Assembly (NCBI GenBank): GCA_964459205.1
Contig: CAYWKJ010000002.1
Span: 235 to 64,234, forward strand
Direction of reading: 5' to 3'
Length of the DNA stretch: 64,000 nucleotides
DNA from: an uncultured Candidatus Peribacteria bacterium
Lineage (GTDB): Bacteria > Patescibacteriota > Gracilibacteria > UBA1369 > UBA12473
Part shown: positions 1,255-60,202 of the stretch, in pieces
How positions within the stretch are numbered: position 1 is the first letter of the stretch
Layout: each line of letters begins with the position of its first letter
Made by a program: the position numbers and the translations under genes
The notes under the pieces: model-generated
Database searches by the model: none
The model's input: the letters and a program-made list of their open reading frames with translations, nothing else
Told to the model about the DNA's origin: nothing

Positions 1255-1342
1255 AAAACAACCCTTAAATAAGACAAGTTCCACTTATTTCCAAAAGTGT
1301 TCTTTTCCTGTAAAATTATTAGATTTAAAAACAAAAAACAAA

Positions 1343-1666
1343 ATGGCCATAAAAGAATCTGAAATCCAAGAGCTCCTTCAAAAATCACTCATCGATGATG
1401 AGATGAAAGACTCTTTACGCGCTCAACTGTCGCAAATGACCGAAGCCCAAAAAGAAGAACTCCTTGGGATTCTTCATAAAGAACAGGAGATGCTAGAGGA
1501 AGAAGTGACAAAAGAAAACGCGCCGATTTACGCCAAGTTAAAGGAAGATATGGACGTTTTACTTTATGAACACCTAAGAAAAGCTCGCCAAACACTGGAG
1601 TCACAAGACAAGCAAAGCGAAGGAGCTGACCTCGCCGCTTTAGAACAAGAACTAGACAATCTTTAA
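1343..1666 (+). CDS. Small acidic coiled-coil protein, function unknown
   Basis: A 107-aa ORF rich in E/K/L/Q with heptad-like spacing. It has no TM segment or signal peptide. Its stop is 2 nt before the next start (1669), which suggests translational coupling. The leader is A-rich. Confidence 0.6.
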   Translation: MAIKESEIQELLQKSLIDDEMKDSLRAQLSQMTEAQKEELLGILHKEQEMLEEEVTKENAPIYAKLKEDMDVLLYEHLRKARQTLESQDKQSEGADLAALEQELDNL

Positions 1667-1668
1667 CT

Positions 1669-3612
1669 ATGGAACACCTAGAAGCCCCACAATACGATGT
1701 TGAGGTCTCCGAACAGGCTGATGATCAGGCTGAAGAGGGAATAATTACTGATAAAGAACTTCAAGACTATAAAATAACCCTAGTAGAAACTTTTGACAGC
1801 GGGCTCAACTGGAGTTCTGCTGGACGAGAAGAGTTTAATCAAGCCTTCGAGGAAGCCTTAGACGAGCTTATTGATGTTAGCGCTCGTAATTTAGTAAACA
1901 CCGACACTCTTTCGCCTACTCGCGAAAAATTTGTAAAGCATGCAATTATGCAATATATGACCTCTTTTTCTACGATTGTTGCAAAGGACATTGGCATAGA
2001 ACGCGAAGCTGACGACGTAGCAAAAGCAAAAAAAAGCGTAGAAAAAATGTTTACTATTAGACAAAGATCTTTTACTCCCCCAGAAATCACCGAAGCATAT
2101 GAAACCAACAATGATGCTGAAGTGTCATTTTTACTACTAACAGATAGTAACGATGCTCCAGCAGAAGTACAAATTAAATACCAAGAACCTGGCAACGTTG
2201 AAAGGAATATGTCTGTGGAAACTGCTGAAATATTTTTAGAATCACAAGCCCAAACTGTAGAAGGAACAATTGCCCATGACGTGCGCCAAAACCGAGAAGC
2301 TTATCGCATTGATGGCGTAAATTACGAAATACAAGACCCCCATGCCCTATTACAGTTCGTCCATGACAGATGTGGACCTTTTACCGGCAATAACCCTAAT
2401 CCTACTAGGGCATACAGACTAGCAATAGATTTAGCAAAAACGCAGCTTCGCATTGCCAGTTCAAACGAAGAAGCCGGAGAAAAAATGGCAGCAGACAACA
2501 TCCCTATTGATCAATTAATAAGGGGCGTACAAGACTCCCCGACCTGTTGTCGTCATTATACCGCTGCTGTAACAACTATTTTTGAACAGATGCAAATTCT
2601 AGCAAAAAGAGCCGGGAATGACCTTTTGGACGATATTGTTGCTTTTGAAAACGATATGTCAGAAATGGCTCACGCAACCGTTGCTTTTGCTCGAGGGAAT
2701 GAAGTTACAGTATCAGATCCATTATGGTATGCAACTGGAGCTATAGAATCACCTGATGCCACCTTTTCAGGATCACATGCTAACTTAACATCTCTTTATA
2801 GAACCTTAAGTAAAGTCCCTGAAGGGCAACCCGAAAGACGCATCTTTGATATGGGTAGCGCCGAAAAATACGTAGTCAGAATGAAGGGCATGCCAGAAGA
2901 AGGAGATAACCAAATTCAACGATACTTAATGCGTACTCGAGAAGTCCTACTCCGCGAAGAATTACAAACGCCCGAAAACCTGATAAACACTAGTGACGTA
3001 ATATTTAAGACAGCACTTAGAATTGGCACAATCAACAGCGACATTGAAAGAGTTCATGCCACTGCATTACAAGCACAAGCTAAATATATGGCATTAATCA
3101 TAGATTCTAGATTAACAAATCAAACACTAGACACTGCAACTAGAGAACAACTTGAATACGAACTATCTCGCCTAAGAAGCAATGTCCTACCATTCTTGAA
3201 CTCAAAAATAACAGGAACAAATTGTGATTACGCCATAGCCAACGCGTATGAAGACGCCAGCAACGGCCTCTCTGAAACAAGCAGAGAGTCTTTGCTTCAG
3301 CAAACAGGTGAGACCATGTGCCTAATTGCAAAACAAGAACTGGCAGACCTTACTGGAGAATTACTATTTGCCGAGGCTAATCCAGGCAAAAGAGAACCCG
3401 AATCCTGGCCTCCAAGCCTAAGCAGCCATGGAGCTCAACGTACAATTGATGCTTTTATTCAGGTTGCCAATCGCCTAGAAAACGGACAACAATTATTAGA
3501 TCAGGTAGCTAGCCATATTGATTATATATTTGAACAAAAAAGAATTCAGTTTAGCAGCTGCCCTACATCCGAAGAATATCTAAGAGACATTCAAGATAAA
3601 TTAACCGCCTAA
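1669..3612 (+). CDS. Hypothetical 647-aa acidic protein with a transglutaminase-like (papain-fold) Cys-His-Asp core
   Basis: A long ORF with no signal peptide or TM segment. The segment ...DSPTCCRHYTAAVTTIF...(about 40 aa)...MAHATVAFARGNEVTVSDPLW has the spacing and local context of the transglutaminase-like core (C ... HAxVE ... DP). The triad would be Cys293/294 (2545-2550), His335 (2671-2673) and Asp350 (2716-2718). Confidence 0.7.
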   Translation: MEHLEAPQYDVEVSEQADDQAEEGIITDKELQDYKITLVETFDSGLNWSSAGREEFNQAFEEALDELIDVSARNLVNTDTLSPTREKFVKHAIMQYMTSFSTIVAKDIGIEREADDVAKAKKSVEKMFTIRQRSFTPPEITEAYETNNDAEVSFLLLTDSNDAPAEVQIKYQEPGNVERNMSVETAEIFLESQAQTVEGTIAHDVRQNREAYRIDGVNYEIQDPHALLQFVHDRCGPFTGNNPNPTRAYRLAIDLAKTQLRIASSNEEAGEKMAADNIPIDQLIRGVQDSPTCCRHYTAAVTTIFEQMQILAKRAGNDLLDDIVAFENDMSEMAHATVAFARGNEVTVSDPLWYATGAIESPDATFSGSHANLTSLYRTLSKVPEGQPERRIFDMGSAEKYVVRMKGMPEEGDNQIQRYLMRTREVLLREELQTPENLINTSDVIFKTALRIGTINSDIERVHATALQAQAKYMALIIDSRLTNQTLDTATREQLEYELSRLRSNVLPFLNSKITGTNCDYAIANAYEDASNGLSETSRESLLQQTGETMCLIAKQELADLTGELLFAEANPGKREPESWPPSLSSHGAQRTIDAFIQVANRLENGQQLLDQVASHIDYIFEQKRIQFSSCPTSEEYLRDIQDKLTA

Positions 3613-3618
3613 CCCCTC

Positions 3619-3647
3619 TTGCCTTACAGGAAATAATATGATATAAT
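3619..3647 (+). promoter_or_regulatory. Candidate sigma-70 promoter with extended -10 upstream of the 1481-aa gene
   Basis: TTGCCT (3619-3624), 17-nt spacer, TATAAT (3642-3647), with TG at 3639-3640. It lies 38 nt upstream of ATG 3685 and is followed by an A-rich leader. Confidence 0.4.
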
Positions 3648-3684
3648 TTATTAATGTCAAAAATAAAAATTAAAACAAAATAAC

Positions 3685-6600
3685 ATGCCAGAGCAATTCA
3701 CCCCTAGTGGAGAAGGTCCCGGTCGCTATCCTGAAATGGGCGACGCTGAACGTACGGATATGTACCGCACACTAGCTACACATAAAGCTCCAGATTTTGG
3801 TGAACATGGGCATGAAGCAATTGATGATGCAGATCGAATAACTTTAGAAGGAGCTGATGAATACTCTGCTCATGCCACTGATGATGCTGAAGAACTCAAA
3901 GGCATGTATGTTAGCCAAGCTATTTTGAATGCTTTCCAAAGTCAGTTTCCAGAAGATGGAGAACGCGCTGAAGAAATGATGTTCTACGCGCTTGATTATC
4001 TTAAAAGCGCACCAGAAAATGCTAGCGGCGTAAATATTGATTCAATTGGCAAAGACGACACCATCCGTATTTACAAAGATAGTTCAGATGCCGAACGCTG
4101 GAAACTTAGGGTAGAAAAACCAGGAGGAGTAGACCTCTTTAATGGTTTTCTTTTCCCATTAGGAGTTGAACAAAAACAATGCATTAGTGAAGCCCCTGCC
4201 AAATTTGAAGAAGCTAAGGGTGAATTTATGGAAAATCCTGTGGAAGGAGTTTTAAGTGGATCAGTTGATGGGATTTTACAAGGAGCCGAAGACCTAAGAG
4301 TTCGTGACCGCGTTATTGAAGATCTTGATCTTGCTACTCCCAAACTAGGAAAACTCCCTGCAGACGGGCCCGCAGAAAAACGCTGGGCCCTTACTTTGGA
4401 AGGGACTGATGCTGTCGATGAGGTTGTAGAAGTTACTCCATTGCTAGAAGCAAAAGCACAAATCCAAGACGCCATGACCGCTGATAATGGGAATGACACC
4501 GTAACCGAGGATTTAATCACCGAGCAACTTGCAATCATAAATGATGCGCTTAGTGAAATTAACAACGAAGAGCTAAAAACTCAAGTCACACAAGACCTAG
4601 ATTTAGAAACTCCACACATCACAGATAATGCTGACTACACCAAAACATGGACTTTAGGTCTGAATGAAGATGGCACTGTTGAGGCCACAGCCGAAGATAT
4701 CCCTCAAGAACACACTGATGTCTTTAATGCCAAACAAGATTTACTTAATCCACAAGCAAATGGAGCTCAGGTTGCAGAAAGCATTCAAACTCTTACAGAA
4801 AGCATCAATCTAGTAGTGCCCCCAGCAGACAGAGACGCCTTAGTTCTTAAATTGGAAATCGATCAACTAGACACTATTGTAACTGATGTTGGCAGCCAAT
4901 ATGACATTCTAGTCACCCATGGTGGCGATGGGGAAACAGTAGAAATTCAAGCCACACTAGACCAAACGGTCCTACTCGCATCCGCCACCGCAGAAAAAGA
5001 AACTCTTGTGGCTGCTCTTACGGAAGACCCTACAGTTAATGTTGACGCTGCAACAAACCTAGAAGGTCTCATTAACGAAATGCCAGAAGATGATCGAGCT
5101 GGCTTTGCAGAGTCCTTAGGCATCCCAGCTGAAGGGTTAGCTTTTGACACTGCAGATGGGCTTCCTTATCTCTTAGGATATGAAAGTGAATCCGTATACG
5201 TCGCACTCAATGAAGAACAATTCAGCGCAATGATTACCGACGCAAACGAAGCCACTTTGACAGCTTTATCGGCACTTGAGAACATTCCAGCGGGCGACCC
5301 TGAATCAGTAATCGCCTTAGAACAATTTCCTAATGAAGTTCAAGCCCTCATAACCGAAACTCAAGCCCTATTAGAAAAAACTCCTGAAGATAACTTAAAT
5401 ATCTGGGATCCTTATGGAACCCCAGCACGAGTTATCCGACCAAACTATGGAGAATCCTTAAATCTCACTATAGATGCGGCTGGTAAAAATGTAACCGTCT
5501 CCAAAGAAACCGCTATTGAAACTAGTTCTCGTGAAAGCATAAAAACCCTAGTAAACGCAATCTCTGATGGGTCAGCTACCCAAACAGAATTAGAGACCTT
5601 TCAAGCAGCCGTAACAGATCAGAGCATCACCGCCATAACCCCATATTTTTCAACAATAGATGACGGGGCCAATTACACCTTAGAAGTAACAGACACTACC
5701 ACTGATACTACGCATACTATCAACATTGACACAGATAACGTAGTCACCATAGACCCTGAACTAGCCGAAGCCGCAGAACCTCTTGCCGAAACCATTGAGC
5801 AAGCCAAGGAGCAATTAGCGGCTGTAAGAACTGCCATCGAGGCCCAAACTGATTCCAATTTAGTCGCCACAACTGATGTTGCTGAATTAAACGCCACTAT
5901 TTTGAGCGTAGAAGGAGAGCAGCGTGCAGAACTTTTATTTACACTTATGGAAGGTGGCGAAAGGATAGACATAGAGTCTCCAGGAACTGCTTCCCCAGAA
6001 CACAAAATCCCATGGTCACTCTCTTGGGACGAAAGTGGCTCCTCTATCAGCATTGAGCTTAATGAGGATGCTCTTACTAGGACAACTCAGGGAATAGATA
6101 AACGTCTAATGGAGGCATTAGATTCCACAGATAACCCACCAGCTTACGAGGCGATGCAAACCGAGCTACAAGAATACATAAATATTCTACCAGATAACTT
6201 TAACGTACTTGATTCTAATATTTGGCAAGGAGGACTATCTGATAATGATCCTCCAAATGATCATCCTTGGTACAAAATAGACACTGACGCAACCGATCCA
6301 GATGCTGTTACCAACACCGTGACCATTGTCCCGCAAATGACTGATGCCCAAAAAAACGTTCTTATCAAACATGGCGAACTAGAAACAGCTGTAGCTACAG
6401 ATGGAGCAGATCGAGAAGCTCCTCTTCAAGCATTAAATACCGCTATCCAAACAATTACAGACCTGGGAGAAAGTGACGCTGTAGTAAGATATATTTACGC
6501 TTATTCCGAGTTAGCAGCGGACTTAGAATACAGTTGGGATGACCAAGAATTCACACTTACCGTCGAGGAAGCCCCAACAGACATCGAAGCCAAAGCTGCT

Positions 6601-8130
6601 CCTGTTCAGGAACAGCTAACTATTTTTACCGAATCTCTTGCAGGATCCAGCGGATTTAGCCAAATCGAAGATGTCTCTACCGAGGCCATACAAACAGCCA
6701 TCAGTGGTGTTGCCGAAGCAGACCGCCCAGCCGTACTTGAACATCTTGGGCTAACAGACGGGAAAGAAATAACTGTCCCCATCGTGGCCAATAGTGACCT
6801 CACTATCCAATGCCCCTATATTCTTAGCACAAACGACGCCGCCGAAGTCATCTTACTTCCTAACATGGAACAATTTGGGCCAATGGCTAGACAAAGTTAC
6901 GACGATGCTGTCGAACATATAAGAACTGAACCTGAGTATAGCAGTCCTGGCCTCGATACATTCAACGCACTCGTATATTTACTGGAAGCAGAAAATGTCC
7001 CTGAAGAATATCAAGACGCCCTTTACACAGCTGTCCGCGGAGACGCCCCAGCTATTCAAGAAATAACTACTACAGATCCAGCCCGGACACTACTTGTGAC
7101 TTTCACAAGATACCCAGACCCAATTGGCAACTATTTAAGAATTGAAGAAAAACAAGAATACACTACCGCTGCAGAAATTCCATTAGGCGGAAGCATTGCC
7201 GATGAAAGCGACTTAGAAAAAACCATGACACATGGTGACACCGACTACGTAAATGATGAATATGTAAATGAATTTAGATGGATCCGCCCTTATGGTATCG
7301 GGGGGGATATAGAAAACTCTTATCGCTTAGAACGTATAGCTCCGGCCAATGTCGCCTCTGCCCTACGTAATTTAGATACAGTAGCTGAATCCGAAGGAAA
7401 TAGCTCTCTTAGCGACCTTAGTGAGGCATTAGCTACACTAAACACAGCCCTAGACGAAGTAACAGATCCAGATACCCGATCCAGAATTGAAGATAATCTT
7501 TGGTTGAGTGGAACACCAGAAAACTATGGGTTAGATGTCCGCATAGACGGAACTAATTACCCTTGCTATATATCAAAAACAGCTGACGGCCCTCTAGAAA
7601 TTACTCCTAATAGGCATGAATGGAAAACCATTCTAGAAAGCAATTATACACAAGCAATTACAAAACTAGAAGGGAGCCTAGAATTAGGAGTGGTCGGAGA
7701 ACCTCTCGAAAAAACATTGCGTTTAATTCATGAATTGGACGACAGCAACACCCAAATAAGTTTCCTACGAGGAATCGGTCTAGAGCAAACCTCAACTAAA
7801 GAAATTACTCAAACTGATGGAACAAAAATCCGCCTTACTTTACTGTGCCCAGAAGAAAGACGCTATATACCTAACGGAACATATAAGTACTTTCATATTG
7901 AAACAATAGCCCCTGAAGAGCCATATACCGACATAAGCCAGATCCCATTAAATGTTAGTGTCAGCCAAGATGAAGCTGAAAATTTAGGCTTAATAACCCA
8001 AACACCAGAAAACATTCAAAGTGGAACATGGAGTATCCCAGCAGAACACAACTCAGAATTTTCATGGATAAAACCATTCGGTCAAGGCTGGCGTGTAATC
8101 CACGATGCTGAGGCTCCAGCCACCCCATAA
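3685..8130 (+). CDS. Giant (1481 aa) highly acidic D/E/T-rich protein of unknown function with degenerate internal repeats and a duplicated C-terminal module
   Basis: An uninterrupted 4.4-kb ORF with no signal peptide or TM segment. It has recurrent beta-hairpin-like segments (KRWALTLEGTDAV, KTWTLGLNEDGTV, IPWSLSWDESGSS, LEYSWDDQEFTLTV...) separated by helical acidic linkers. It also has two C-terminal copies of a module ending EFRWIRPYGIGG / EFSWIKPFGQGW. Confidence 0.8.
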   Translation: MPEQFTPSGEGPGRYPEMGDAERTDMYRTLATHKAPDFGEHGHEAIDDADRITLEGADEYSAHATDDAEELKGMYVSQAILNAFQSQFPEDGERAEEMMFYALDYLKSAPENASGVNIDSIGKDDTIRIYKDSSDAERWKLRVEKPGGVDLFNGFLFPLGVEQKQCISEAPAKFEEAKGEFMENPVEGVLSGSVDGILQGAEDLRVRDRVIEDLDLATPKLGKLPADGPAEKRWALTLEGTDAVDEVVEVTPLLEAKAQIQDAMTADNGNDTVTEDLITEQLAIINDALSEINNEELKTQVTQDLDLETPHITDNADYTKTWTLGLNEDGTVEATAEDIPQEHTDVFNAKQDLLNPQANGAQVAESIQTLTESINLVVPPADRDALVLKLEIDQLDTIVTDVGSQYDILVTHGGDGETVEIQATLDQTVLLASATAEKETLVAALTEDPTVNVDAATNLEGLINEMPEDDRAGFAESLGIPAEGLAFDTADGLPYLLGYESESVYVALNEEQFSAMITDANEATLTALSALENIPAGDPESVIALEQFPNEVQALITETQALLEKTPEDNLNIWDPYGTPARVIRPNYGESLNLTIDAAGKNVTVSKETAIETSSRESIKTLVNAISDGSATQTELETFQAAVTDQSITAITPYFSTIDDGANYTLEVTDTTTDTTHTINIDTDNVVTIDPELAEAAEPLAETIEQAKEQLAAVRTAIEAQTDSNLVATTDVAELNATILSVEGEQRAELLFTLMEGGERIDIESPGTASPEHKIPWSLSWDESGSSISIELNEDALTRTTQGIDKRLMEALDSTDNPPAYEAMQTELQEYINILPDNFNVLDSNIWQGGLSDNDPPNDHPWYKIDTDATDPDAVTNTVTIVPQMTDAQKNVLIKHGELETAVATDGADREAPLQALNTAIQTITDLGESDAVVRYIYAYSELAADLEYSWDDQEFTLTVEEAPTDIEAKAAPVQEQLTIFTESLAGSSGFSQIEDVSTEAIQTAISGVAEADRPAVLEHLGLTDGKEITVPIVANSDLTIQCPYILSTNDAAEVILLPNMEQFGPMARQSYDDAVEHIRTEPEYSSPGLDTFNALVYLLEAENVPEEYQDALYTAVRGDAPAIQEITTTDPARTLLVTFTRYPDPIGNYLRIEEKQEYTTAAEIPLGGSIADESDLEKTMTHGDTDYVNDEYVNEFRWIRPYGIGGDIENSYRLERIAPANVASALRNLDTVAESEGNSSLSDLSEALATLNTALDEVTDPDTRSRIEDNLWLSGTPENYGLDVRIDGTNYPCYISKTADGPLEITPNRHEWKTILESNYTQAITKLEGSLELGVVGEPLEKTLRLIHELDDSNTQISFLRGIGLEQTSTKEITQTDGTKIRLTLLCPEERRYIPNGTYKYFHIETIAPEEPYTDISQIPLNVSVSQDEAENLGLITQTPENIQSGTWSIPAEHNSEFSWIKPFGQGWRVIHDAEAPATP

Positions 8131-8145
8131 TTATAAATAGAGTTG

Positions 8146-8154
8146 TGTTATAAT
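8146..8154 (+). promoter_or_regulatory. Candidate extended -10 element (TGtTATAAT) upstream of pyk
   Basis: TGTTATAAT at 8146-8154, 21 nt upstream of ATG 8175. No convincing -35 element. Confidence 0.3.
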
Positions 8155-8174
8155 AAGAGTGCTTGACCCTCCCT

Positions 8175-9593
8175 ATGACTCGTAAAAAGAATACCAAAAT
8201 TGTTTGTACTCTGGGGCCTTCCTCAGATTCAAAAGAAATAATCGAACAAATGCTAAATGCCGGGATGAATGTGGCTCGGCTTAATTTTTCGCATGGGTCT
8301 TATGACCATATGAAAAAAATCTACCGCAACCTACGTGCCGCCAGCAAAAAAACCGGGATACAGGTGGCCATGATGCAAGATTTGCAAGGGCCCAAAATTA
8401 GAGTTGGAAAACTCCCAAAAGAAGGGCTTGAACTTAAAAGAATGCAAACTGTAACGCTATTAACTGGGTGTAAAACCGCTAAAGAAGGCATTATTCCAGT
8501 CCCCTACTCTAATCTGCATAAAGATATCAAGCGCGGAGACATTCTTTTGCTTGATGATGGATATTTAGAATTGGTTGTAACTCATAAAAAAGGACGTAAA
8601 ATTAATTGCCGCGTAAAAACTGGCGGCATTTTAAAAACCAATAAAGGTATTAACTGTCCTACTGCCTCCTTGCGAGCTAAGGCTATTACACGCAAAGATC
8701 TTCTAGATTTAGACTTTGGACTTAAACAGGGCATTGATTATGTGTCACTCTCGTTTGTGAAATCTGCCAAAGATATCCACGCCTTACGCGCCGAACTTGT
8801 AAAACGTGGCCACCCGCAAGTGCAAATTATTGCTAAAATCGAACGCCATGAGGCTATCGCCAATCTAGAATCAATTGTAAAAGAAGCGGATGGGATTATG
8901 GTAGCGCGCGGAGATCTAGGCCTAGAAATCCCCGCCGAAAGGGTCCCAATCGCCCAAAAAGAAATCGTACGCTTAGGACTCATTTACGGAAAGCCTACGA
9001 TCATCGCCACTCAAATTCTTGAATCAATGATTAATAATCCGCGCGCCACACGCGCCGAGGTTAGTGACGCCGCCACTGCTATTTTTGATCATGCCGACGC
9101 TTTTATGCTTTCCGGAGAAACTTCGGTCGGCGCTCACCCTGTTCGCGCCGTCAGCACCCTGGCTAAAGTCGCGCACGCTGTCGAAAAAGAACTTCAAGAA
9201 AAAGAACACCTCTTAACTTATCCACATCAAGAAAAAAACTGCCCAATTAGCGATTCAATCTGTTTAAGCGCGGCCATGCTTGCCGAAGAACTCAAGGCAA
9301 AGGCTATCGTAGTCATCACCAAATCTGGTTACACCGCTCGCCAAATCATGAAACACCGCCCCAGCATCCCGACAATGGCTATCACTTATTCCGAAAAAAT
9401 CACCCGCCAGCTCAAATTAGTATGGGGCATGAATAAAAGTTATGTATCAAAAACTCAAATCAAAACAGACCGCATGGCCGACAAACTAGTCCCCCGCATA
9501 GTTAAAAAACTAAACTTAGCCAAAAAAGGTGACCAAATCGTTATTGTAAACGCTGGTCGCAAAAACAACTTCATCTCAACTATTGTGGTATAA
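8175..9593 (+). CDS. pyk: Pyruvate kinase
   Basis: KIVCTLGPSS, MNVARLNFSHGS, MVARGDLGLEIP and ATQILESM motifs. I prefer ATG 8175 over the TTG at 8163 used by the ORF track. CCTCC lies at 8168-8172. Confidence 0.93.
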   Translation: MTRKKNTKIVCTLGPSSDSKEIIEQMLNAGMNVARLNFSHGSYDHMKKIYRNLRAASKKTGIQVAMMQDLQGPKIRVGKLPKEGLELKRMQTVTLLTGCKTAKEGIIPVPYSNLHKDIKRGDILLLDDGYLELVVTHKKGRKINCRVKTGGILKTNKGINCPTASLRAKAITRKDLLDLDFGLKQGIDYVSLSFVKSAKDIHALRAELVKRGHPQVQIIAKIERHEAIANLESIVKEADGIMVARGDLGLEIPAERVPIAQKEIVRLGLIYGKPTIIATQILESMINNPRATRAEVSDAATAIFDHADAFMLSGETSVGAHPVRAVSTLAKVAHAVEKELQEKEHLLTYPHQEKNCPISDSICLSAAMLAEELKAKAIVVITKSGYTARQIMKHRPSIPTMAITYSEKITRQLKLVWGMNKSYVSKTQIKTDRMADKLVPRIVKKLNLAKKGDQIVIVNAGRKNNFISTIVV

Positions 9594-43440: not shown

Positions 43441-46400
43441 ATGGATTTCTTCAAAAAAATCAAACAAAAGGCCTGCCGCATGGCCTGCGACCATTTAGCG
43501 TCTGCAAAACCGGCGCGACTTGTATTCTTTACAGCAGGAGGTGAAGGCCCCAGCTCAGAAGATCAAACAGCATATGAGGCCAAAAAACAACAACTAGAGG
43601 CAGAACAAGAAACCCTTGAAGGCATTTCACCAGATGCTGAAACTCGAGCAGAAGTCCAAGCAACATTCCAAACCTTAAACACACTATTAGACGCTTTCTG
43701 GACAGCTCCCTCAGAGGAAGGAGATGAACAAGATTTCACCGTAACAGAACGCGGCCAATTTGATACTTACAAAGATACTGCTCTAGAAAAACACAATGAT
43801 TTACTAATTGAGCTAGCGCGAAGACAAGTCGACGAACGAATAGCACTTAGAGGAGAAGCTGTTGATCGTGCTGTTGCAGAAGCAACAGAGCCAACAGAAT
43901 CTCCAGAAGCAGCTTCTAAAACTCCTGCTCAACATCGCGCTGAACTCTTATCAAGTGGGCACATTGTTGAAGTTAAACCTGAGGGATATCTAAAAGACAT
44001 GGCTAGAGACAATGGCATGACTTACGACCAAATAGTAGAATTAAATGACTTAATCAGTCCAAATTTTCACGTTAACAAAGCCAAAGGCTGGTGTTATGCA
44101 GACGACACTGTATATGTATACACCTCCCCTCGCGCCGCTGAAGAAGCTGAGGTAGCTTTAGGATTTCGTGAAGCCTCAGAACATGCTGAGTTTATTGACG
44201 ACACTCCAGAAACTGTTGTCACCGGAGAAGCACTAGCAGAAGCGGCTAGTGAAAGTTACGCCCGCGAACAAGCTCAAGCAGCTGAACTATATGGAGAAAA
44301 AGGAGCTGATGTAGTTGGCACCCGCGAAGCCCTGCTTGCTCAGAAAGGACGTGGACGTGGTAGAAAAGAAAGCTTCCGCGGAACATTACTATCACAAGGA
44401 GCAGAAGGAATGATAGATCCTAGCATGCGCCTCCCTCTTGCTGCCCAAGATTGGAACGATCTCAAAGATAGTTGGGATACAGTCCAGGGGAGAGCAGGTA
44501 TCGAAGAATGGCTTAAGCGTCCAACTTTTAAAGCAGCTGGTATTGATGTTGATGAATACCTACAAGCCTTAGCCAAAGATGGCACTGACACTGTACGGTT
44601 TCAAGATTTACTTAGCGCTGTTTACAGAGGTCCTGCCCAAGGAGAAGGACTTGTTCTTGGTCTAGCCCAACAACTCACTGGGCTATCAATTGACACCAAA
44701 GAACACAAAAAAGTTCTCAGAAAAATTAAAGGGAATTTCACCAACGATTATGATCGGATGATGGACACCCTTACTCTCGAAACAACCGAAAAAACATACA
44801 TTGGTGATGGGATGGTACGCGTTAGCTTAGAAAGCGATGATCAAACTCTAACTCTAGAAGTGCCACTTGAACAGGTCGTGACTCTTGATGAAGATGCACT
44901 TGATATGCCTCTCGAAGATCTCACCGACACAGAAATTCAAGCAATGATTGACGATGGAGATGATCTAAGCTTTTACATGAGCCCCGAAGGACAACTTATG
45001 TCTGCTAGAGGTGAAGATGTAAGCGGAGCTATCACTGAAGGAAATATAGAAAACCTAGCTGCGGAACACCAAGTAGAACGCGCCATTGTGATGGCTATGG
45101 AAACCATTTACCAAGACGTAAGTGGGCTCTATGACCTTACCGGCAATCTTACTTATGTCGAAGCTCAAGCCGACGAAAGTTACATTGACACTCGCAGCCG
45201 CGTAGAAGCGCTAAGAGATAGTGGATCAGAATATGGCCCAGTAGCCGCTAATTTCTCTACTCGCTTGGGAGAAGCTTTAGCTGACAATCAATGGAGTAAC
45301 CGAGATTTAGAATCTCTTGGATTTATCCGTAAAGGAGACGAAATCACTTACGAAGATATCGAATCTGGTCGCAAATACACCATTCGCAAAGAAGAACTTT
45401 TTAAATACTACTCTGGAGACGCTGTAATTGATGAAATTCTAGATAAATTCTTAATTCAAGAACACACGGACGATGGCTCAATTGCAACTACTTTCAAACT
45501 TGGAGATGCTATTGCTTTTGTTAACAATGACGTTATCCGCCTTGGCCTCTCACAACATCCAGAAATGGTCGAAGAATATGGAGGTGGAGATATCGAAGCT
45601 GCCTTAGTAGCACTCAGACTCCGTGGAGAACAACTTACTGAAGATGGACAAGATCTCAGCGCTGATCAAATGACACTCATTCAAGATGGATATTTGATCC
45701 ACGCTACTATGCGTCACGCCTCTGAAGTTCAAGAAGGCCGCGCTGCCGCCGCTGAACTTAGCGAAGCTGCTCGTGAAGGACAAGAATCATTACAAGAAGA
45801 AAGCACAGAAATCCGAGTATTTCTTCCAGATGAATATCTTGAAGCCATTTACGCGACGAATCCTCAATTCGACAATCCTAAAGATCGCGCTTTGATTGCC
45901 GACCGAATTAGAATTGGATTCCATGTTGGGACTGTAAAAATAATTGATGATGGGGTTACTCACACTCGAACTCACGTTTTCTATGATGCCAATGGCAATG
46001 AAGTAGACCGATTTGATGTTGATCGAACTATTCGCGAAGCTGGCACCTTGGATGCCACACGACTAGCTTCAATCGGAGTTGGTGTTAACCCAGTTAATAT
46101 TCAAGGGCTTGGTGAAAACGGCAACCAATCACTAAGCTTTGGATTTGCTGGTGGATATAATTTTGTTAATCAAACAGCCAATATTGGAGCTGGTGCACGC
46201 TATACAGTAGAGTTTAAAAATGGAATCCAAGTATACGCTGATGCTGGTGTTAGTTTAGGAGGCGGAGCAGTTGGTGGTGGAATTAATATCCCAATTGGCC
46301 AAATGCGCCTTGATCTCCATGGACACGCTTATGTTGGTGTTCCTGGTGGTAGCGTTGGAGCAATGCTTACACTAGGTAACATTGAAAATCGTTACGAATC

Positions 46401-48957
46401 AAAAGTCACCAAGAAATTCGAAAAAAATGGATTCTCTGCTATTGATGAAGCTATTGCGGCAGCTGGTCAACAGCCAAGTCTCGAAGTTACCGAACTCATT
46501 CTAGCTCACGAAGACTTTAGTGGTATGGGACTCGCTGATATCTACGCTACCTTTGAAAATGCTGGAGGACCATCATTTGATGAAATCAAAAACGAACCTG
46601 GATTCCAACAATTTGTAATGGATATGTATAGACAGCAACGGAGTGCTAGAGCTGACGAAATTCTACATGGAATTGCAGCCAACCCTTTAAGCCCAGCCAA
46701 CATCACAATTGGAGTAGAGGCTCAAATAGTCGGTGGCTTTGTTTGTCTTTGCCCAGTAATTGGGACCGCGGTTTACAGTCAAAAACTTGCTTTCCGCAGT
46801 CCAACTGGAATCCCATACGAAATCCAAGGAGATGATGTACTACTCCAACAGTTATTGCACACGGAAATAGATGTAAAGACTGGAGTATTACGAGGCCAAG
46901 TGCCAAAACTTGTTCGCGATCCAGAAAATCCAGAAGATGGCTATGTCGTAGCCATGGAAGGAGAAGCTCACGAGGGCTTACTTATGGGAGCTGAAGCAGT
47001 TGCTTCTTATAATCAAGAATTACGTGGTAGTGGGCTCTTTTTAGTCCCCACTAAAGTTAGACAACCAGGTGAAGATGGTGAAATGATAGAACGAACCTTA
47101 ATGGAACTTAGCATTGCGGAGGCTAATGGCAGCTTAGAAATTATTCCTGATCCTGCTTTAGCCGACCAACTTGCTGTTACTTATAAAAAAGGGGAAGGAG
47201 GCGACTCAGACAGTTACTTATTAGCATTTTCGCCAGGCACTAATCTTTCTATTCGTCGGGTTAATCTTCATTACCCATACGAAAAAAATGGCTCTTATGA
47301 AAGAACTATCATTGTGATTACTGAACAAGGCTCTGGCGTCACTTATGATCAATTACTTGATCAACACGCACCAATGCTCCGTCGTTCCGCTGGAAAACGC
47401 ACTATTTCTGATCTTGCTCATTCAACTGACTATCTAGATGGAGAAATTAACGCTCCAGTCCAAACTCTTTCTAGGTATATGGATCGAGATCCTGATCAAA
47501 TGCATGACTGGACTGAAATTTCTGAACAAGACGCCCTTGCCCGAGATTATCTTAATGATCTTGGCTACCCAGGCTTTGGAGAAGAAGTCAGCGAAGCCAC
47601 ATTGGCTGAATTTGAATCAGCCGCTAGAGAGTTAATGGACCAAAGCAACGCCAGCAATAAACAGTTTAGAATTGATTTCAAAAAATTCTCAACAATCGGC
47701 GGGAATCCCGATCCAGTTAAACTACAAGAACTTTGCGGGGCCAAGGCAGAAGAATTATTTGGACGTGAACTTACCCCGGCTGAATTAACTCAATTCATCC
47801 AAACTCTAGCAATCTTTAGTTTTGTAGATCTTCATAACGATGCTAGCGAGTTAACTGGTGAGGCTCGTGAAAAAGCTCTAAAAGAACAACAAAAAAGTTA
47901 CGAAAGAATGCTTCATGGCTACATGACACAACGCTTAACCATTGAATTCAGCAAACACGTTAGTAACAAAACCCAAGTAAAACAAATGGTCGAACTAGTA
48001 GTTAGCCGCTTAGAAATTTCTGCTGATGAATGGGAAATGTTTGACCCAGAATCCGGCGGCGAACTCCCTACAGGAGGAGTATTTGGATCAATTGTTGGGA
48101 CAGACCGTATCCGTGGTATTCGCCTTACTGAAAACTACCAAGACCAAGAATTCTATGAAATCCTTAAGCTAACACCTTTTGATTTACGCAGCAGTGACCC
48201 AGTAGAAAGAGAAGTAGCTCGTGCTATTGTTGCTATTCTAAATCCACTACCCGAAGAAACAGAAATGACACCAGAAAATGTGGAAGCTGCCCGTGAATTC
48301 TTACTTGATGACTTTACGCAAAGAATGGTTCTTGTGTGGGCTTATAAAAACCCCGAACAACACCAAACCCTCAGCAGGATGTCAGTTATCGCTAAACAAA
48401 ACGATACAAATTTTGCCGAAGCCCTTGTATATCCCGGGCACCAAGAATTACTCACCGAACTCCAAGATTTTGTTCAAGAATCTCGAGAAGCTGAATTATC
48501 AGCCGTACCAAAACGTATTAAACTTAGAGAAAACGTTTACTTAAACTTCGAAAATGTAGAAGCTAGTTTCTTTGTTTTCCAACGTTGTGGAAATGTTTCG
48601 CTCTACCTAAATGAAGACATCTTCATTGAAAACGAAGCTGGAGCTGTAATTGGGGTAGTTGATGAACGCCACGTCATGGTTCAAGCCGAAGCAGCCGAAA
48701 GACAACTCATTGTTGGTCTTGGTGTTAGTCAAAAAGTTAAACACATTGGTGACCATACAAGCGACGTTGTTGAGCATCATGAAGAACCTGAACCTGAACA
48801 ACCTGACCAAGGAGGAACCGTAGAAGAAGGTGGATTTACCCCTACTACTGTTGAAGAAGGCACTTCTAGCCATGAAGAAGGAGAATCTGGCCACAGTGAT
48901 GATGATCCAGAGGACAGTGACACTTCAGGAGCCCCAATGGGTGGTGGCAGCAGCTAA
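43441..48957 (+). CDS. Giant (1838 aa) protein of unknown function with a LysM-like segment, a Gly-rich amphipathic beta region and an acidic disordered tail
   Basis: An uninterrupted 5.5-kb ORF with no obvious signal peptide. A LysM-like segment lies at 43957-44095 (HIVEVKPEGYLKDMARDNGMTYDQIVELNDLISPNFHV). A Gly-rich alternating segment lies at 46060-46400. The C-terminus is HEEPEPEQPDQGG...SDDDPEDSD. Confidence 0.8.
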   Translation: MDFFKKIKQKACRMACDHLASAKPARLVFFTAGGEGPSSEDQTAYEAKKQQLEAEQETLEGISPDAETRAEVQATFQTLNTLLDAFWTAPSEEGDEQDFTVTERGQFDTYKDTALEKHNDLLIELARRQVDERIALRGEAVDRAVAEATEPTESPEAASKTPAQHRAELLSSGHIVEVKPEGYLKDMARDNGMTYDQIVELNDLISPNFHVNKAKGWCYADDTVYVYTSPRAAEEAEVALGFREASEHAEFIDDTPETVVTGEALAEAASESYAREQAQAAELYGEKGADVVGTREALLAQKGRGRGRKESFRGTLLSQGAEGMIDPSMRLPLAAQDWNDLKDSWDTVQGRAGIEEWLKRPTFKAAGIDVDEYLQALAKDGTDTVRFQDLLSAVYRGPAQGEGLVLGLAQQLTGLSIDTKEHKKVLRKIKGNFTNDYDRMMDTLTLETTEKTYIGDGMVRVSLESDDQTLTLEVPLEQVVTLDEDALDMPLEDLTDTEIQAMIDDGDDLSFYMSPEGQLMSARGEDVSGAITEGNIENLAAEHQVERAIVMAMETIYQDVSGLYDLTGNLTYVEAQADESYIDTRSRVEALRDSGSEYGPVAANFSTRLGEALADNQWSNRDLESLGFIRKGDEITYEDIESGRKYTIRKEELFKYYSGDAVIDEILDKFLIQEHTDDGSIATTFKLGDAIAFVNNDVIRLGLSQHPEMVEEYGGGDIEAALVALRLRGEQLTEDGQDLSADQMTLIQDGYLIHATMRHASEVQEGRAAAAELSEAAREGQESLQEESTEIRVFLPDEYLEAIYATNPQFDNPKDRALIADRIRIGFHVGTVKIIDDGVTHTRTHVFYDANGNEVDRFDVDRTIREAGTLDATRLASIGVGVNPVNIQGLGENGNQSLSFGFAGGYNFVNQTANIGAGARYTVEFKNGIQVYADAGVSLGGGAVGGGINIPIGQMRLDLHGHAYVGVPGGSVGAMLTLGNIENRYESKVTKKFEKNGFSAIDEAIAAAGQQPSLEVTELILAHEDFSGMGLADIYATFENAGGPSFDEIKNEPGFQQFVMDMYRQQRSARADEILHGIAANPLSPANITIGVEAQIVGGFVCLCPVIGTAVYSQKLAFRSPTGIPYEIQGDDVLLQQLLHTEIDVKTGVLRGQVPKLVRDPENPEDGYVVAMEGEAHEGLLMGAEAVASYNQELRGSGLFLVPTKVRQPGEDGEMIERTLMELSIAEANGSLEIIPDPALADQLAVTYKKGEGGDSDSYLLAFSPGTNLSIRRVNLHYPYEKNGSYERTIIVITEQGSGVTYDQLLDQHAPMLRRSAGKRTISDLAHSTDYLDGEINAPVQTLSRYMDRDPDQMHDWTEISEQDALARDYLNDLGYPGFGEEVSEATLAEFESAARELMDQSNASNKQFRIDFKKFSTIGGNPDPVKLQELCGAKAEELFGRELTPAELTQFIQTLAIFSFVDLHNDASELTGEAREKALKEQQKSYERMLHGYMTQRLTIEFSKHVSNKTQVKQMVELVVSRLEISADEWEMFDPESGGELPTGGVFGSIVGTDRIRGIRLTENYQDQEFYEILKLTPFDLRSSDPVEREVARAIVAILNPLPEETEMTPENVEAAREFLLDDFTQRMVLVWAYKNPEQHQTLSRMSVIAKQNDTNFAEALVYPGHQELLTELQDFVQESREAELSAVPKRIKLRENVYLNFENVEASFFVFQRCGNVSLYLNEDIFIENEAGAVIGVVDERHVMVQAEAAERQLIVGLGVSQKVKHIGDHTSDVVEHHEEPEPEQPDQGGTVEEGGFTPTTVEEGTSSHEEGESGHSDDDPEDSDTSGAPMGGGSS

Positions 48958-59453: not shown

Positions 59454-60202
59454 ACCCGCGCTCTTTTACGATAAGTGGTATCGTTATTAGAATATCTGAT
59501 TTAGGGGAATCTGATCGATTTGTAACTTTACTAACTCCAGACCGTGGCAAAATCACCACCATTGGGAAAAATCTCCGAACCTTAAAAAGTCGCCGCAACA
59601 CCCAATTAGAATTAATGAACCGCGTTCAGGCAAAACTCTGGCGCAGCCGTAACCATCACTATTTAAGCGAATGCAAACTAGAAGAAAGATTTAATGAACT
59701 CAAAAAAAATCTCGCCAGCTCAACTTCCGCCGCTTTTATCATCGAGGCCACAGAACGCTTAACCGCCGAAGAACACCATATCCCCCATCTTTATGACTTA
59801 CTTGAACAAACCCTCTCACTCATTGACTTTTACCCCAAAAAGCACGAATTATTGCGCGAAGCCTATCTTATCAAGTTACTTAACTTAGTAGGTAGCATCA
59901 GTAGTTTCCGAGCCTGTGCCGAATGCAAAAAACCACTCCCCCAGGAAGATGCCTTCCTAGACGAAGACCATTCTACGATTCACTGCATAACTTGCAGCGA
60001 CAAAACCGCCAGCTACTTACGCCGCATTCCACTTGAAACTCTTAAACTCATGCATTTTTTACTATCCCACCCTATCCCGGCCGCTCTCAAACTAAAAATT
60101 ACCAAAGAACACATAAACATCATCGACGAATTTGGACGCACTTTCCTAAAAAAAGACCTGCACTATCCACTTAAGTCAGAGGCGTTTTTAAACACTTATT
60201 AA
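59450..60202 (+). CDS. recO: DNA repair protein RecO
   Basis: N-terminal OB fold GIVIRISDLGESDRFVTLLTPDRGKI and a zinc finger CAECKK...HCITCSD; 250 aa. Confidence 0.85.
   Translation: MNPRSFTISGIVIRISDLGESDRFVTLLTPDRGKITTIGKNLRTLKSRRNTQLELMNRVQAKLWRSRNHHYLSECKLEERFNELKKNLASSTSAAFIIEATERLTAEEHHIPHLYDLLEQTLSLIDFYPKKHELLREAYLIKLLNLVGSISSFRACAECKKPLPQEDAFLDEDHSTIHCITCSDKTASYLRRIPLETLKLMHFLLSHPIPAALKLKITKEHINIIDEFGRTFLKKDLHYPLKSEAFLNTY

What the first reader, a model, noticed from the sequence alone, without database searches (positions are those of the whole stretch)
1343..8130. Three-gene acidic module: coiled-coil protein, transglutaminase-like protein and 1481-aa repeat protein
- **Arrangement:** Three co-directional ORFs sit between glmS and pyk.
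- **Coupling:** The first two are 2 nt apart. The third has its own near-consensus extended -10 promoter (3619-3647).
- **Localisation:** None has a signal peptide or TM helix.
- **Composition:** All are strongly acidic. Only the middle one shows a recognisable catalytic core.
- **Size:** Together they occupy 6.7 kb of what looks like a small, streamlined genome, which argues for an important lineage-specific function.
- **Candidates:** A protease or cross-linking enzyme with its scaffold or substrate, a cytoskeletal or attachment structure, or effectors exported by a non-Sec route.
Basis: partly seen in the sequence, partly recalled or inferred. Interest (0 to 1): 0.6.

Follow-up and report, generated by a model that had tools for sequence, protein, structure and literature searches.

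The report
Two accessory units, not one module
The three acidic genes between glmS and pyk in this small Peribacteria (CPR) genome are real, but no relative carries all three: they are a conserved pair (a small helical protein plus a divergent transglutaminase-like enzyme) next to an independently transcribed giant protein of a lineage-specific family, all fast-evolving and dispensable.

Summary
The three ORFs, their 2-nt spacing, the promoter-like site before the third gene, and the lack of signal peptide or TM helix are all confirmed. The "three-gene module" is not.

- **Synteny:** No relative has all three genes. The glmS-pyk gap is a variable slot. It is empty in 5 of 9 genomes of the family, including one of the same genus. 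It holds only the 107-aa and ~640-aa pair in G002 and four metagenome contigs, and only the giant protein in G003.
- **Pair:** The small and middle genes form a tightly coupled two-gene unit, with the same 2-nt gap in three relatives.
- **Middle protein:** It belongs to a rare Patescibacteria-only family that Pfam does not recognise. It has an invariant Cys-His-Asp. A confident core model (pLDDT 88.6) has only transglutaminase-like proteins as plausible PDB neighbours, and weakly (best E 0.018).
- **Giant protein:** It belongs to a family found in two Peribacterales families. The family is defined by a ~165-aa N-terminal domain followed by variable acidic tails. One member carries a canonical transglutaminase core. 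Only its C-terminal duplication is statistically supported as a repeat.
- **Evolution:** The three proteins are 35-63% identical to their orthologues, where neighbouring genes are 78-95% identical.
- **Acidity:** It is ordinary for this proteome (median pI 5.6).

Function remains inferred.

The parts
1288..1316 (+). Weak promoter-like site (TTTCCA-17-TAAAAT, 9 of 12) in the glmS / 107-aa gene gap
   Evidence: This is a consensus match only.
1343..1666 (+). P0001: a 107-aa acidic protein rich in Leu, Glu and Gln. It is probably all-helical and is the partner of P0002.
   Evidence: Searches give the sequence and composition. Orthologues stand directly upstream of every P0002 orthologue (A3, 34-63% identity). 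It has no Pfam, NCBIfam, PHROG or PADLOC family.
1669..3612 (+). P0002: a 647-aa multidomain protein. It has an N-terminal helical region, a small beta region, a transglutaminase-like core, a conserved extension to about residue 440, and a variable helical C-terminus.
2251..2928 (+). P0002 residues 195-420: the Cys-His-Asp core domain. The codons are C294 at 2548-2550, H335 at 2671-2673 and D350 at 2716-2718.
   Evidence: The AF2 model has pLDDT 88.6 and pTM 0.86. The top Foldseek PDB hits are 9crn TglA (E 0.018, prob 0.96), 4xz7 TGase, 3isr and 4fgo LapG. Invariance is shown. hhalign against Peribacteria Transglut_core puts C, H and D in register at E 0.062.
3619..3647 (+). Promoter-like site with an extended -10 (TTGCCT-17-TG-TATAAT) before P0003
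   Evidence: A like site stands before the G003 orthologue.
3685..8130 (+). P0003: a 1481-aa acidic (pI <=4.05), Thr/Asp/Glu-rich, Cys-poor protein with no export signal
   Evidence: The G003 orthologue aligns over residues 1-1219 at 35% identity.
3685..4179 (+). N-terminal ~165-aa domain that defines a Peribacterales-restricted protein family
   Evidence: Alignment A2. The domain is in 9 of 9 genomes of the family, at 1-3 copies each, and in 4 genomes of a second family, but in none of the other 188 genomes sampled from the order. A paralogue lies on contig C55 of the same genome.
6985..7374 (+). C-terminal module, copy 1 (residues ~1101-1230)
7765..8127 (+). C-terminal module, copy 2 (residues ~1361-1481). 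The G003 orthologue has one copy, so this copy is extra.

Best explanation
**Two unrelated accessory units share one slot.** They sit in a gain-and-loss-prone gap between glmS and pyk of a Candidatus Peribacteria (Patescibacteria/CPR) genome.

**Unit 1: P0001 plus P0002.**
- It is a translationally coupled operon.
- P0002 is a divergent member of the transglutaminase-like (papain-fold) cysteine enzymes.
- Inferred mechanism: C294, at the start of a helix, attacks a protein amide (a peptide bond or a Gln side chain) to form a thioester. H335 and D350 act as the charge relay. The thioester is then resolved by water (protease or deamidase) or by an amine (cross-link).
- P0001, a small helical protein made in step with P0002, most likely binds it as an adaptor, chaperone or inhibitor.

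**Unit 2: P0003.**
- It has its own promoter.
- It belongs to a family built from a conserved ~165-aa N-terminal "head" and a fast-changing acidic tail. The head is probably the docking or localisation part. The tail is linker-rich or modular and acts as scaffold or cargo.
- None of the three proteins has a Sec signal, so the default location is the cytoplasm.

**Shown and inferred.** Shown: the anatomy, family membership, distribution, synteny and rate of divergence. Inferred: catalysis, the P0001-P0002 complex, the role of the head domain, and location.
For: **Organism**
- Record titles of related loci name Candidatus Peribacteria / Peregrinibacteria.

**Pair as a unit**
- The order glmS, ~107-114-aa gene, ~536-677-aa gene, pyk occurs in G002 and in contigs L033, L034, L054 and L055.
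- The 2-nt gap is kept in G002, L033 and L054.

**P0003 is independent of the pair**
- G003 has the big protein in the slot without the pair. G002 and four contigs have the pair without the big protein.
- A promoter-like site stands before P0003 in both G000 and G003.

**The slot is variable**
- It is empty in G001 and G004-G007. G008 holds an unrelated 1329-aa signal-peptide protein there.

**Fold of P0002**
- bear on it.
- An exhaustive HMMER search found only 35 relatives in 1.84 billion representatives. The few that carry a name are Patescibacteria. One of 22 weakly hits Pfam DUF553, a transglutaminase-like domain (7.7e-4).

**N-domain family**
- Tails are low-complexity acidic repeats such as (TEA)n and (EEPKV)n, or other domains.
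- One member (G008, 696 aa) carries Pfam Transglut_core at E 4e-15.
- A 190-aa head-only form exists.

**Fast evolution against G002/G003**
- Neighbouring genes: glmS 95%, pyk 81/78%, ruvC 80%.
- The three proteins: P0001 63%, P0002 42%, P0003 35%.
Against: - P0002 is not matched by Pfam Transglut_core at any threshold tried.
- Profile-profile support is marginal (E 0.062).
- No Foldseek hit reaches E 0.001, and TM-scores are only 0.35-0.40.
- No activity, complex or expression data exist.
- I obtained no structure for P0001, for P0003 or for the N-domain.
- The long Pro/Glu/Thr-rich linkers of family members are more typical of envelope-spanning or surface proteins than of cytoplasmic ones. 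The cytoplasmic default may therefore be wrong.
- Adjacency in G000 together with the N-domain/Transglut_core fusion in G008 could mean the two units are functionally linked after all.
Confidence: 0.6

Rival explanations
1. **A true functional trio, like LapG/LapA.** P0002 would be the protease or cross-linker that cuts or couples N-domain proteins such as P0003, for example at the conserved ...G(F/Y)LFP end of the head domain. This would release or fix the acidic tail. P0001 would regulate it.
For: - The genes are adjacent in G000.
- LapG (4fgo) is among the structural neighbours, though weakly: rank 41, E 3.9.
- A family member fuses the N-domain to a canonical transglutaminase core.
- Eight of the nine genomes of the family carry 1-4 other Transglut_core proteins.
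Against: - There is no co-occurrence. The N-domain is in 9 of 9 family genomes, while P0002 is in only 2 of them.
- The pair occurs without any big gene next to it in 5 loci, and the big gene occurs without the pair in G003.
- The transglutaminase core fused in G008 belongs to the canonical Pfam family, not to the P0002 family.
- Distant P0002 relatives lie in unrelated contexts.
Confidence: 0.15
2. **Inter-organism weaponry or attachment.** P0002 would be an effector with P0001 as its chaperone or immunity protein. P0003 would be a surface or attachment protein. All would leave the cell by a non-Sec route and evolve fast through conflict with a host or with phages.
For: - Divergence is extreme next to conserved neighbours.
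- Presence is patchy.
- A small helical gene is tightly coupled upstream of a papain-fold enzyme.
- The linkers and composition are typical of surface proteins.
- CPR bacteria are widely thought to live attached to hosts (general knowledge; Peribacteria background in PMC4736985).
Against: - No export signal is present.
- No type VII system was found: there is a single FtsK and no WXG100.
- There are no PADLOC or PHROG matches of note.
- The genes sit at a fixed chromosomal place with no mobile-element marks.
- The large surface proteins of this genome do carry N-terminal hydrophobic signals, unlike these three.
Confidence: 0.15
3. **Decaying or neutral accessory genes.** The Cys-His-Asp motif would be a relic (a pseudoenzyme) and the rapid divergence would reflect relaxed constraint rather than function.
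For: - The genes are often lost.
- Divergence is very high.
- The G002 orthologue lacks the last ~110 residues.
- The His/Asp motif of the Peribacteria subgroup (HATVAF...SDP) departs from the HA(W/Y)N...D(T/P)T of the wider family.
Against: - The long frames are intact in every lineage seen.
- 80 or more invariant positions cluster around the triad across four orthologues at 33-43% overall identity.
- The gene coupling and the promoter are conserved.
Confidence: 0.1

Closest known systems
Transglutaminase-like superfamily (Pfam Transglut_core PF01841, papain-fold clan), including bacterial transglutaminase-like cysteine proteinases such as LapG
   Same: - A Cys-His-Asp triad, with Cys at the start of a long helix and His and Asp on or just after the following beta-strands.
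- Family-wide motifs G-V-C-R-H-[YF], H-A-[WY]-N and D-x-T.
- Best structural neighbours: 9crn TglA, 4xz7 TGase, 3isr and 4fgo.
   Different: - It is not detected by PF01841 or any other Pfam or NCBIfam model.
- It is embedded between unique helical and beta regions, with a conserved 80-residue extension after the triad.
- It is restricted to Patescibacteria.
- Its partner gene, P0001, has no counterpart in the known systems.
LapG / LapA (a periplasmic transglutaminase-like protease that cuts off the N-terminal retention module of a giant acidic repeat adhesin)
   Same: - A papain-fold enzyme encoded next to a giant acidic modular protein.
- That giant protein has a small conserved N-terminal globular domain separate from the variable remainder.
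   Different: - There is no outer membrane, type I secretion system, signal peptide or RTX repeats.
- The two genes do not co-occur in relatives.
- The resemblance is an analogy only.
Acidic hub or scaffold proteins and polymorphic "conserved head, variable tail" families (for example HubP/PopZ-type hubs, or LXG-type effectors with small helical partners)
   Same: - A conserved N-terminal domain followed by acidic low-complexity linkers and interchangeable C-termini.
- Several paralogues per genome, each at a fixed place.
   Different: - There is no sequence or profile similarity to any of these.
- No type VII system is present.
- This comparison rests on architecture alone.

Membership tests
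Transglutaminase-like superfamily (Transglut_core, PF01841) | Significant match to the family profile | tested here: not met
   There is no hit for P0002 or for its core alone, even at E<=10. A PF01841 scan of the whole genome finds two other loci and not this one.
Transglutaminase-like superfamily (Transglut_core, PF01841) | Conserved Cys-His-Asp triad in that order | tested here: met
   C294, H335 and D350 are invariant in 4 orthologues. C and H are invariant in 27 family members, and the Asp column is conserved as D-x-T or D-P.
Transglutaminase-like superfamily (Transglut_core, PF01841) | Papain-like core: nucleophile at the N-terminus of a helix packed on an antiparallel sheet that carries His and Asp | tested here: met
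   The core model (pLDDT 88.6) has helix 100-120 starting at the Cys, strands 129-136, 141-148 and 151-155, the His at residue 141 and the Asp at 156. This is a prediction, not a solved structure.
Transglutaminase-like superfamily (Transglut_core, PF01841) | Significant structural or profile-profile similarity to known members | tested here: inconclusive
   Foldseek best hits are 9crn (E 0.018, prob 0.96), 4xz7 (E 0.18, prob 0.89) and 3isr (E 1.0), with none at or below 0.001. hhalign gives E 0.062 with the triad in register. One relative hits DUF553 at 7.7e-4.
Transglutaminase-like superfamily (Transglut_core, PF01841) | Thiol-dependent protease, deamidase or transamidase activity | not testable with these tools
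   This needs expression and assay of the wild type against a C294A mutant.
Conserved three-gene operon or module | The three genes co-occur and are syntenic in relatives | tested here: not met
   None of 40 relatives, nor any metagenome contig found, has all three genes. G002 has the pair only, G003 has the big gene only, and the slot is empty in five genomes.
Peribacterales N-domain family (defined here, alignment A2) | Match to the ~165-aa N-terminal domain profile starting at the first residues of the protein | tested here: met
   P0003 residues 1-~165 match at E 3e-61. P0003 is one of the sequences the profile was built from, so independent support comes from the direct protein search. 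In that search all family genomes match residues ~5-170 (E 1e-8 to 1e-24).
Type VII secretion LXG-effector / Lap-chaperone pairs | A type VII system (EssC-type multi-FtsK ATPase, WXG100 proteins) in the genome | tested here: not met
   There is a single FtsK_SpoIIIE protein of 780 aa and no WXG100 above noise in a genome that is 95% complete.
Phage or anti-phage defence genes | Match to PHROGs or PADLOC models | tested here: not met
   There are no PHROG hits. The only PADLOC hit is a 37-residue stretch of P0003 against PDC-S39 at E 0.0011. The same stretch gives a below-threshold DUF7380 hit.

The most novel reading that the evidence does not exclude
The ~165-aa N-terminal domain would be a so-far-undescribed sorting or docking head. 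It would direct a polymorphic set of acidic cargo proteins to a cell-surface or host-contact structure of Peribacteria without a Sec signal. The cargo includes giant modular tails and transglutaminase-type enzymes. The P0001-P0002 pair would be the matching processing enzyme with its adaptor. Together they would form a lineage-specific host-interaction apparatus of an uncultured CPR clade.
Probability: 0.12. Interest if true: 0.7.

Novelty: new variant of a known kind. Interest (0 to 1): 0.35.

Why it matters
- CPR/Patescibacteria genomes are small, yet they spend much coding space on large orphan proteins whose roles in the presumed host-attached life are unknown.
- This work splits one such "island" into two defined, searchable families:
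  - a Patescibacteria-only branch of the transglutaminase-like cysteine enzymes, with an obligate small partner;
  - a Peribacterales-only "conserved head plus variable acidic tail" family.
- It also shows that both are accessory and fast-evolving, which marks them as candidates for interaction with other organisms rather than housekeeping.
- The gain is modest. It gives better annotation and two testable protein families, not a new mechanism.

Tried and rejected
**Searches of the three proteins that found nothing useful**
- Pfam, NCBIfam, PHROGs and PADLOC gave only sub-threshold scraps.
- PDB sequence searches with profiles A1, A6 and A2 found nothing significant. USP2 at E 0.19 is only suggestive of a papain-type enzyme.

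**Structure work**
- The full-length P0002 model was poor (pLDDT 59.8). Its Foldseek search returned only helical look-alikes.
- I therefore re-modelled the core alone with a deeper alignment.
- Foldseek of the core against viral structures found nothing.

**Word-indexed protein searches**
- Two searches for the N-domain (L018 region 1-175, and alignment A7) found only the query itself. Low-complexity words probably swamped them.
- Scans of genome and metagenome contigs found few extra loci (5 and 6), which confirms rarity.

**Repeats**
- BLAST of P0003 against itself found nothing.
- An iterated HMM seeded with three eye-picked units is circular beyond its first round. I do not count it as proof.

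**Hypotheses rejected**
- Type VII secretion: the genome lacks the system.
- Mobile-element insertion: there are no flanking repeats and no tandem repeats.

**Not available**
- Literature on S. pyogenes TglA (PDB 9crn), and on Peregrinibacteria together with transglutaminase, was not found in the library.
Full report
**What is there.** Table 11 gives three co-directional ORFs:
- 1343-1666: P0001, 107 aa.
- 1669-3612: P0002, 647 aa.
- 3685-8130: P0003, 1481 aa.

Upstream lies the 3' part of glmS. Downstream lie pyk, ruvC, a TPR protein and the prepilin peptidase gene. P0001 and P0002 are 2 nt apart. The 72-nt gap before P0003 holds TTGCCT-17-TGaTATAAT at 3619-3647. The G003 orthologue has TTGCTT-17-TGTTATAAT at the same place. 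No protein has a hydrophobic stretch that could be a signal peptide or TM helix. Calculated pI values are 4.44, 4.61 and <=4.05.

**Organism.** The window is contig C2 of a 1.30-Mb, 80-contig assembly that is 95% complete. Titles of related public records name Candidatus Peribacteria / Peregrinibacteria, a CPR/Patescibacteria lineage. G008 is the Rifle groundwater genome GW2011_GWF2_39_17. The proteome as a whole is acidic: in a crude ORF set the median pI is 5.6 and 24% of ORFs are below 4.7. Acidity therefore does not single out these genes. Most other giant acidic proteins of the genome begin with a hydrophobic signal-like segment, and P0003 does not.

**The trio is not a conserved module.** I looked at the glmS-pyk gap in every genome of the family and in metagenome contigs.

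| Genome or contig | Content of the glmS-pyk gap |
|---|---|
| G001 (same genus), G004, G005, G006, G007 | Empty: glmS and pyk are 57-225 nt apart |
| G008 | One unrelated 1329-aa protein with a signal peptide, on the other strand |
| G002 (same genus) | Small gene plus P0002 homologue only |
| Logan contigs L033, L034, L054, L055 | Small gene plus P0002 homologue only |
| G003 (same genus) | A 313-aa gene on the minus strand plus a 1264-aa P0003 orthologue, without the pair |
| G000 (this window) | Pair plus P0003 |

The slot is a hot spot where two different cargoes come and go, and both are dispensable within a single genus.

**Unit 1: P0001 and P0002.**
- *Coupling.* Five independent lineages keep the small gene directly before the large one, three of them with the same 2-nt gap. 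The small proteins align over their whole length (34-63% identity). They are rich in Leu, Glu and Gln, so they are presumably helical.
- *Conservation.* P0002 orthologues are 33-43% identical, with 80-odd invariant positions concentrated around C294-R-H, H335 and D350-P.
- *Family size.* The word-indexed search found only two relatives among 5.8 billion proteins. The exhaustive HMMER search found 35 among 1.84 billion representatives. The few with names are Uhrbacteria or "Patescibacteria group" hypothetical proteins.
- *Shared motifs.* The distant members share only the core: P-I-D-x-L-L-M-x(4)-G-V-C-R-H-[YF], then H-A-[WY]-N, then [FI]-D-x-T. Cys and His are invariant in 27 sequences.
- *Profile tests.* Pfam does not see the family. 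One of 22 members touches DUF553, a transglutaminase-like domain, at 7.7e-4. hhalign against an alignment of ten bona fide Transglut_core domains from the same bacterial family puts Cys, His and Asp in register, but at E 0.062 only. With the shallow four-sequence profile the E-value was 0.6.
- *Structure.* The full-length model was poor. The core (residues 195-420), modelled with 27 sequences, gave pLDDT 88.6 and pTM 0.86. The Cys sits at the N-terminus of a 21-residue helix, and the His and Asp sit on or just after the following strands.
- *Fold search.* Foldseek against the PDB ranks S. pyogenes TglA first (9crn, E 0.018, prob 0.96) and "a TGase" second (4xz7, E 0.18, prob 0.89). A putative cysteine protease (3isr) and LapG (4fgo) come further down. 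Nothing reaches E 0.001.

My reading is that P0002 is a new, very divergent branch of the transglutaminase-like papain-fold enzymes. The fold assignment is likely (about 0.8). The activity is inferred.

**Unit 2: P0003.**
- *The head domain.* Only its first ~165 residues have relatives beyond the G003 orthologue.
- *Distribution.* That N-terminal domain (alignment A2) occurs in all nine genomes of the family, at 1-3 copies each, and in four genomes of one other family of the order. It is absent from the other 188 genomes sampled.
- *Paralogues.* Copies sit at fixed places:
  - next to yebC in G000:C55, G002:C5 and G001:C34;
  - after ligA in G003:C33, G002:C19 and G001:C167;
  - in the glmS-pyk slot in G000 and G003.

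  This points to vertical descent rather than mobility.
- *Tails.* After the conserved ...RWKLKV...G(F/Y)LFP end of the domain come low-complexity acidic linkers such as (TEA)n, (PETEPEPA)n, (EEPKV)n and (EEYEE)n, and then unrelated C-termini.
- *Variants.* The G008 member carries a canonical Pfam Transglut_core (E 4e-15). A 190-aa head-only form exists in the second family.
- *Known families.* The domain has no relative in Pfam, NCBIfam, PHROGs, PADLOC or the PDB by sequence.
- *Repeats.* P0003 aligns with the G003 protein over residues 1-1219 (35% identity). Its last 70 residues match the end of that protein again (E 1.6e-5). P0003 therefore carries an extra copy of the C-terminal module. 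The "dozen hairpin-plus-helix repeats" seen by eye are at noise level in sequence statistics, and no DNA repeats exist.

**Rate of change.** The table gives identity between G000 and the two same-genus genomes.

| Protein | Identity to G002 / G003 |
|---|---|
| glmS | 95% / 95% |
| pyk | 81% / 78% |
| ruvC | 80% (G003) |
| P0001 | 63% (G002) |
| P0002 | 42% (G002) |
| P0003 | 35% (G003) |

P0002 identity is hardly lower (37-39%) against contigs whose pyk is only 62-67% identical. Divergence therefore plateaus early. This could mean fast change outside a constrained core, or old allelic lineages.

**Are the two units linked?**
- *For a link:* the genes are adjacent in G000, the N-domain is fused to a transglutaminase core in G008, and there is an analogy to LapG/LapA.
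- *Against a link:*
  - There is no co-occurrence: the N-domain is in 9 of 9 family genomes and P0002 in 2 of 9.
  - The promoters are independent.
  - The fused core belongs to a different family.
  - Distant P0002 relatives lie in unrelated contexts:
    - among orphan giants in an Uhrbacterium;
    - beside mreB and glycosyltransferases;
    - inside a MacB/FtsX-type ABC operon, preceded by a 61-aa helical ORF.

I put a functional link at about 0.15.

**Location.** There are no Sec signals and no type VII system. Peribacteria are reported to have type II secretion and type IV pilus genes and many large exported proteins (PMC4736985). I take the cytoplasm as the default location. The Pro/Glu/Thr-rich linkers would suit an envelope-spanning protein, so this stays open.

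**Verdict.** The interpretation as one important module is not supported. Two poorly known, narrowly distributed protein families remain, one of them a divergent transglutaminase-like enzyme with an obligate small partner. Both are accessory and fast-evolving. Interest is moderate to low. It would rise if the N-terminal head proved to be a new targeting device.

Noticed in passing
window 43441-48957 (+) and 60199-62274 (-); also G000 contigs C12:8171-12976, C18:1559-5533, C28:8101-11505, C52:2339-5434: Several large proteins (690-1840 aa) without a signal peptide begin with a similar short motif...(R/N)R(L/F/W)V(F/K)..., often followed by G/P/E-rich residues. Examples are ARLVFFTAGGEGP, KRLVFRNPGE, RRFVFQNNPGG, NRWVKFGAEGP, QRLIFQQAPE and NRLVFQECPE. 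This may be a second family with a conserved N-terminus and a variable body in this genome.
   Followed up: no
G000 contig C55 (L014 3793-4923): The second N-domain protein of this genome, next to yebC, runs into about 70 tandem Thr-Glu-Ala repeats and then into a run of N. Its true length is unknown and the contig probably broke on the repeat.
   Followed up: partly
G002:C19 (L049 3277-5022 and 8020-9765): Two identical copies of the ligA-adjacent N-domain gene with its folC-like neighbour lie 4.7 kb apart, the second after a partial ligA. This is either a recent segmental duplication or an assembly artefact.
   Followed up: no
G003 (L013 6689-7630, -) and G004 (L067 5015-5923, -): Basic ORFs of 313 and 302 aa with no family match lie beside glmS. 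In G003 the ORF sits inside the glmS-pyk slot (...RQFAALLPEAKQRRTYRRHG...). It may be another cargo of the slot or a remnant of a mobile gene.
   Followed up: partly
window 8146-8154 and 8163-8178: TGTTATAAT (an extended -10) stands just before pyk. Orthologues begin at the residues encoded from ATG 8176, so pyk probably starts there and not at TTG 8163, and it has its own promoter.
   Followed up: partly
L070 6085-13257 (JGI metagenome contig): A 1199-aa distant relative of P0002 sits inside a MacB/FtsX-type ABC transporter operon, in the order ATPase, 61-aa helical ORF, relative, two permeases. FtsEX-type systems control extracellular hydrolases, so this is a lead for how some members might be regulated or exported.
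   Followed up: no
P0003 residues 1239-1275 (window about 7399-7509): One short stretch gives sub-threshold hits both to Pfam DUF7380 (25.6 bits against a cut-off of 27) and to the PADLOC candidate PDC-S39 (E 0.0011). It is too short to interpret.
   Followed up: no
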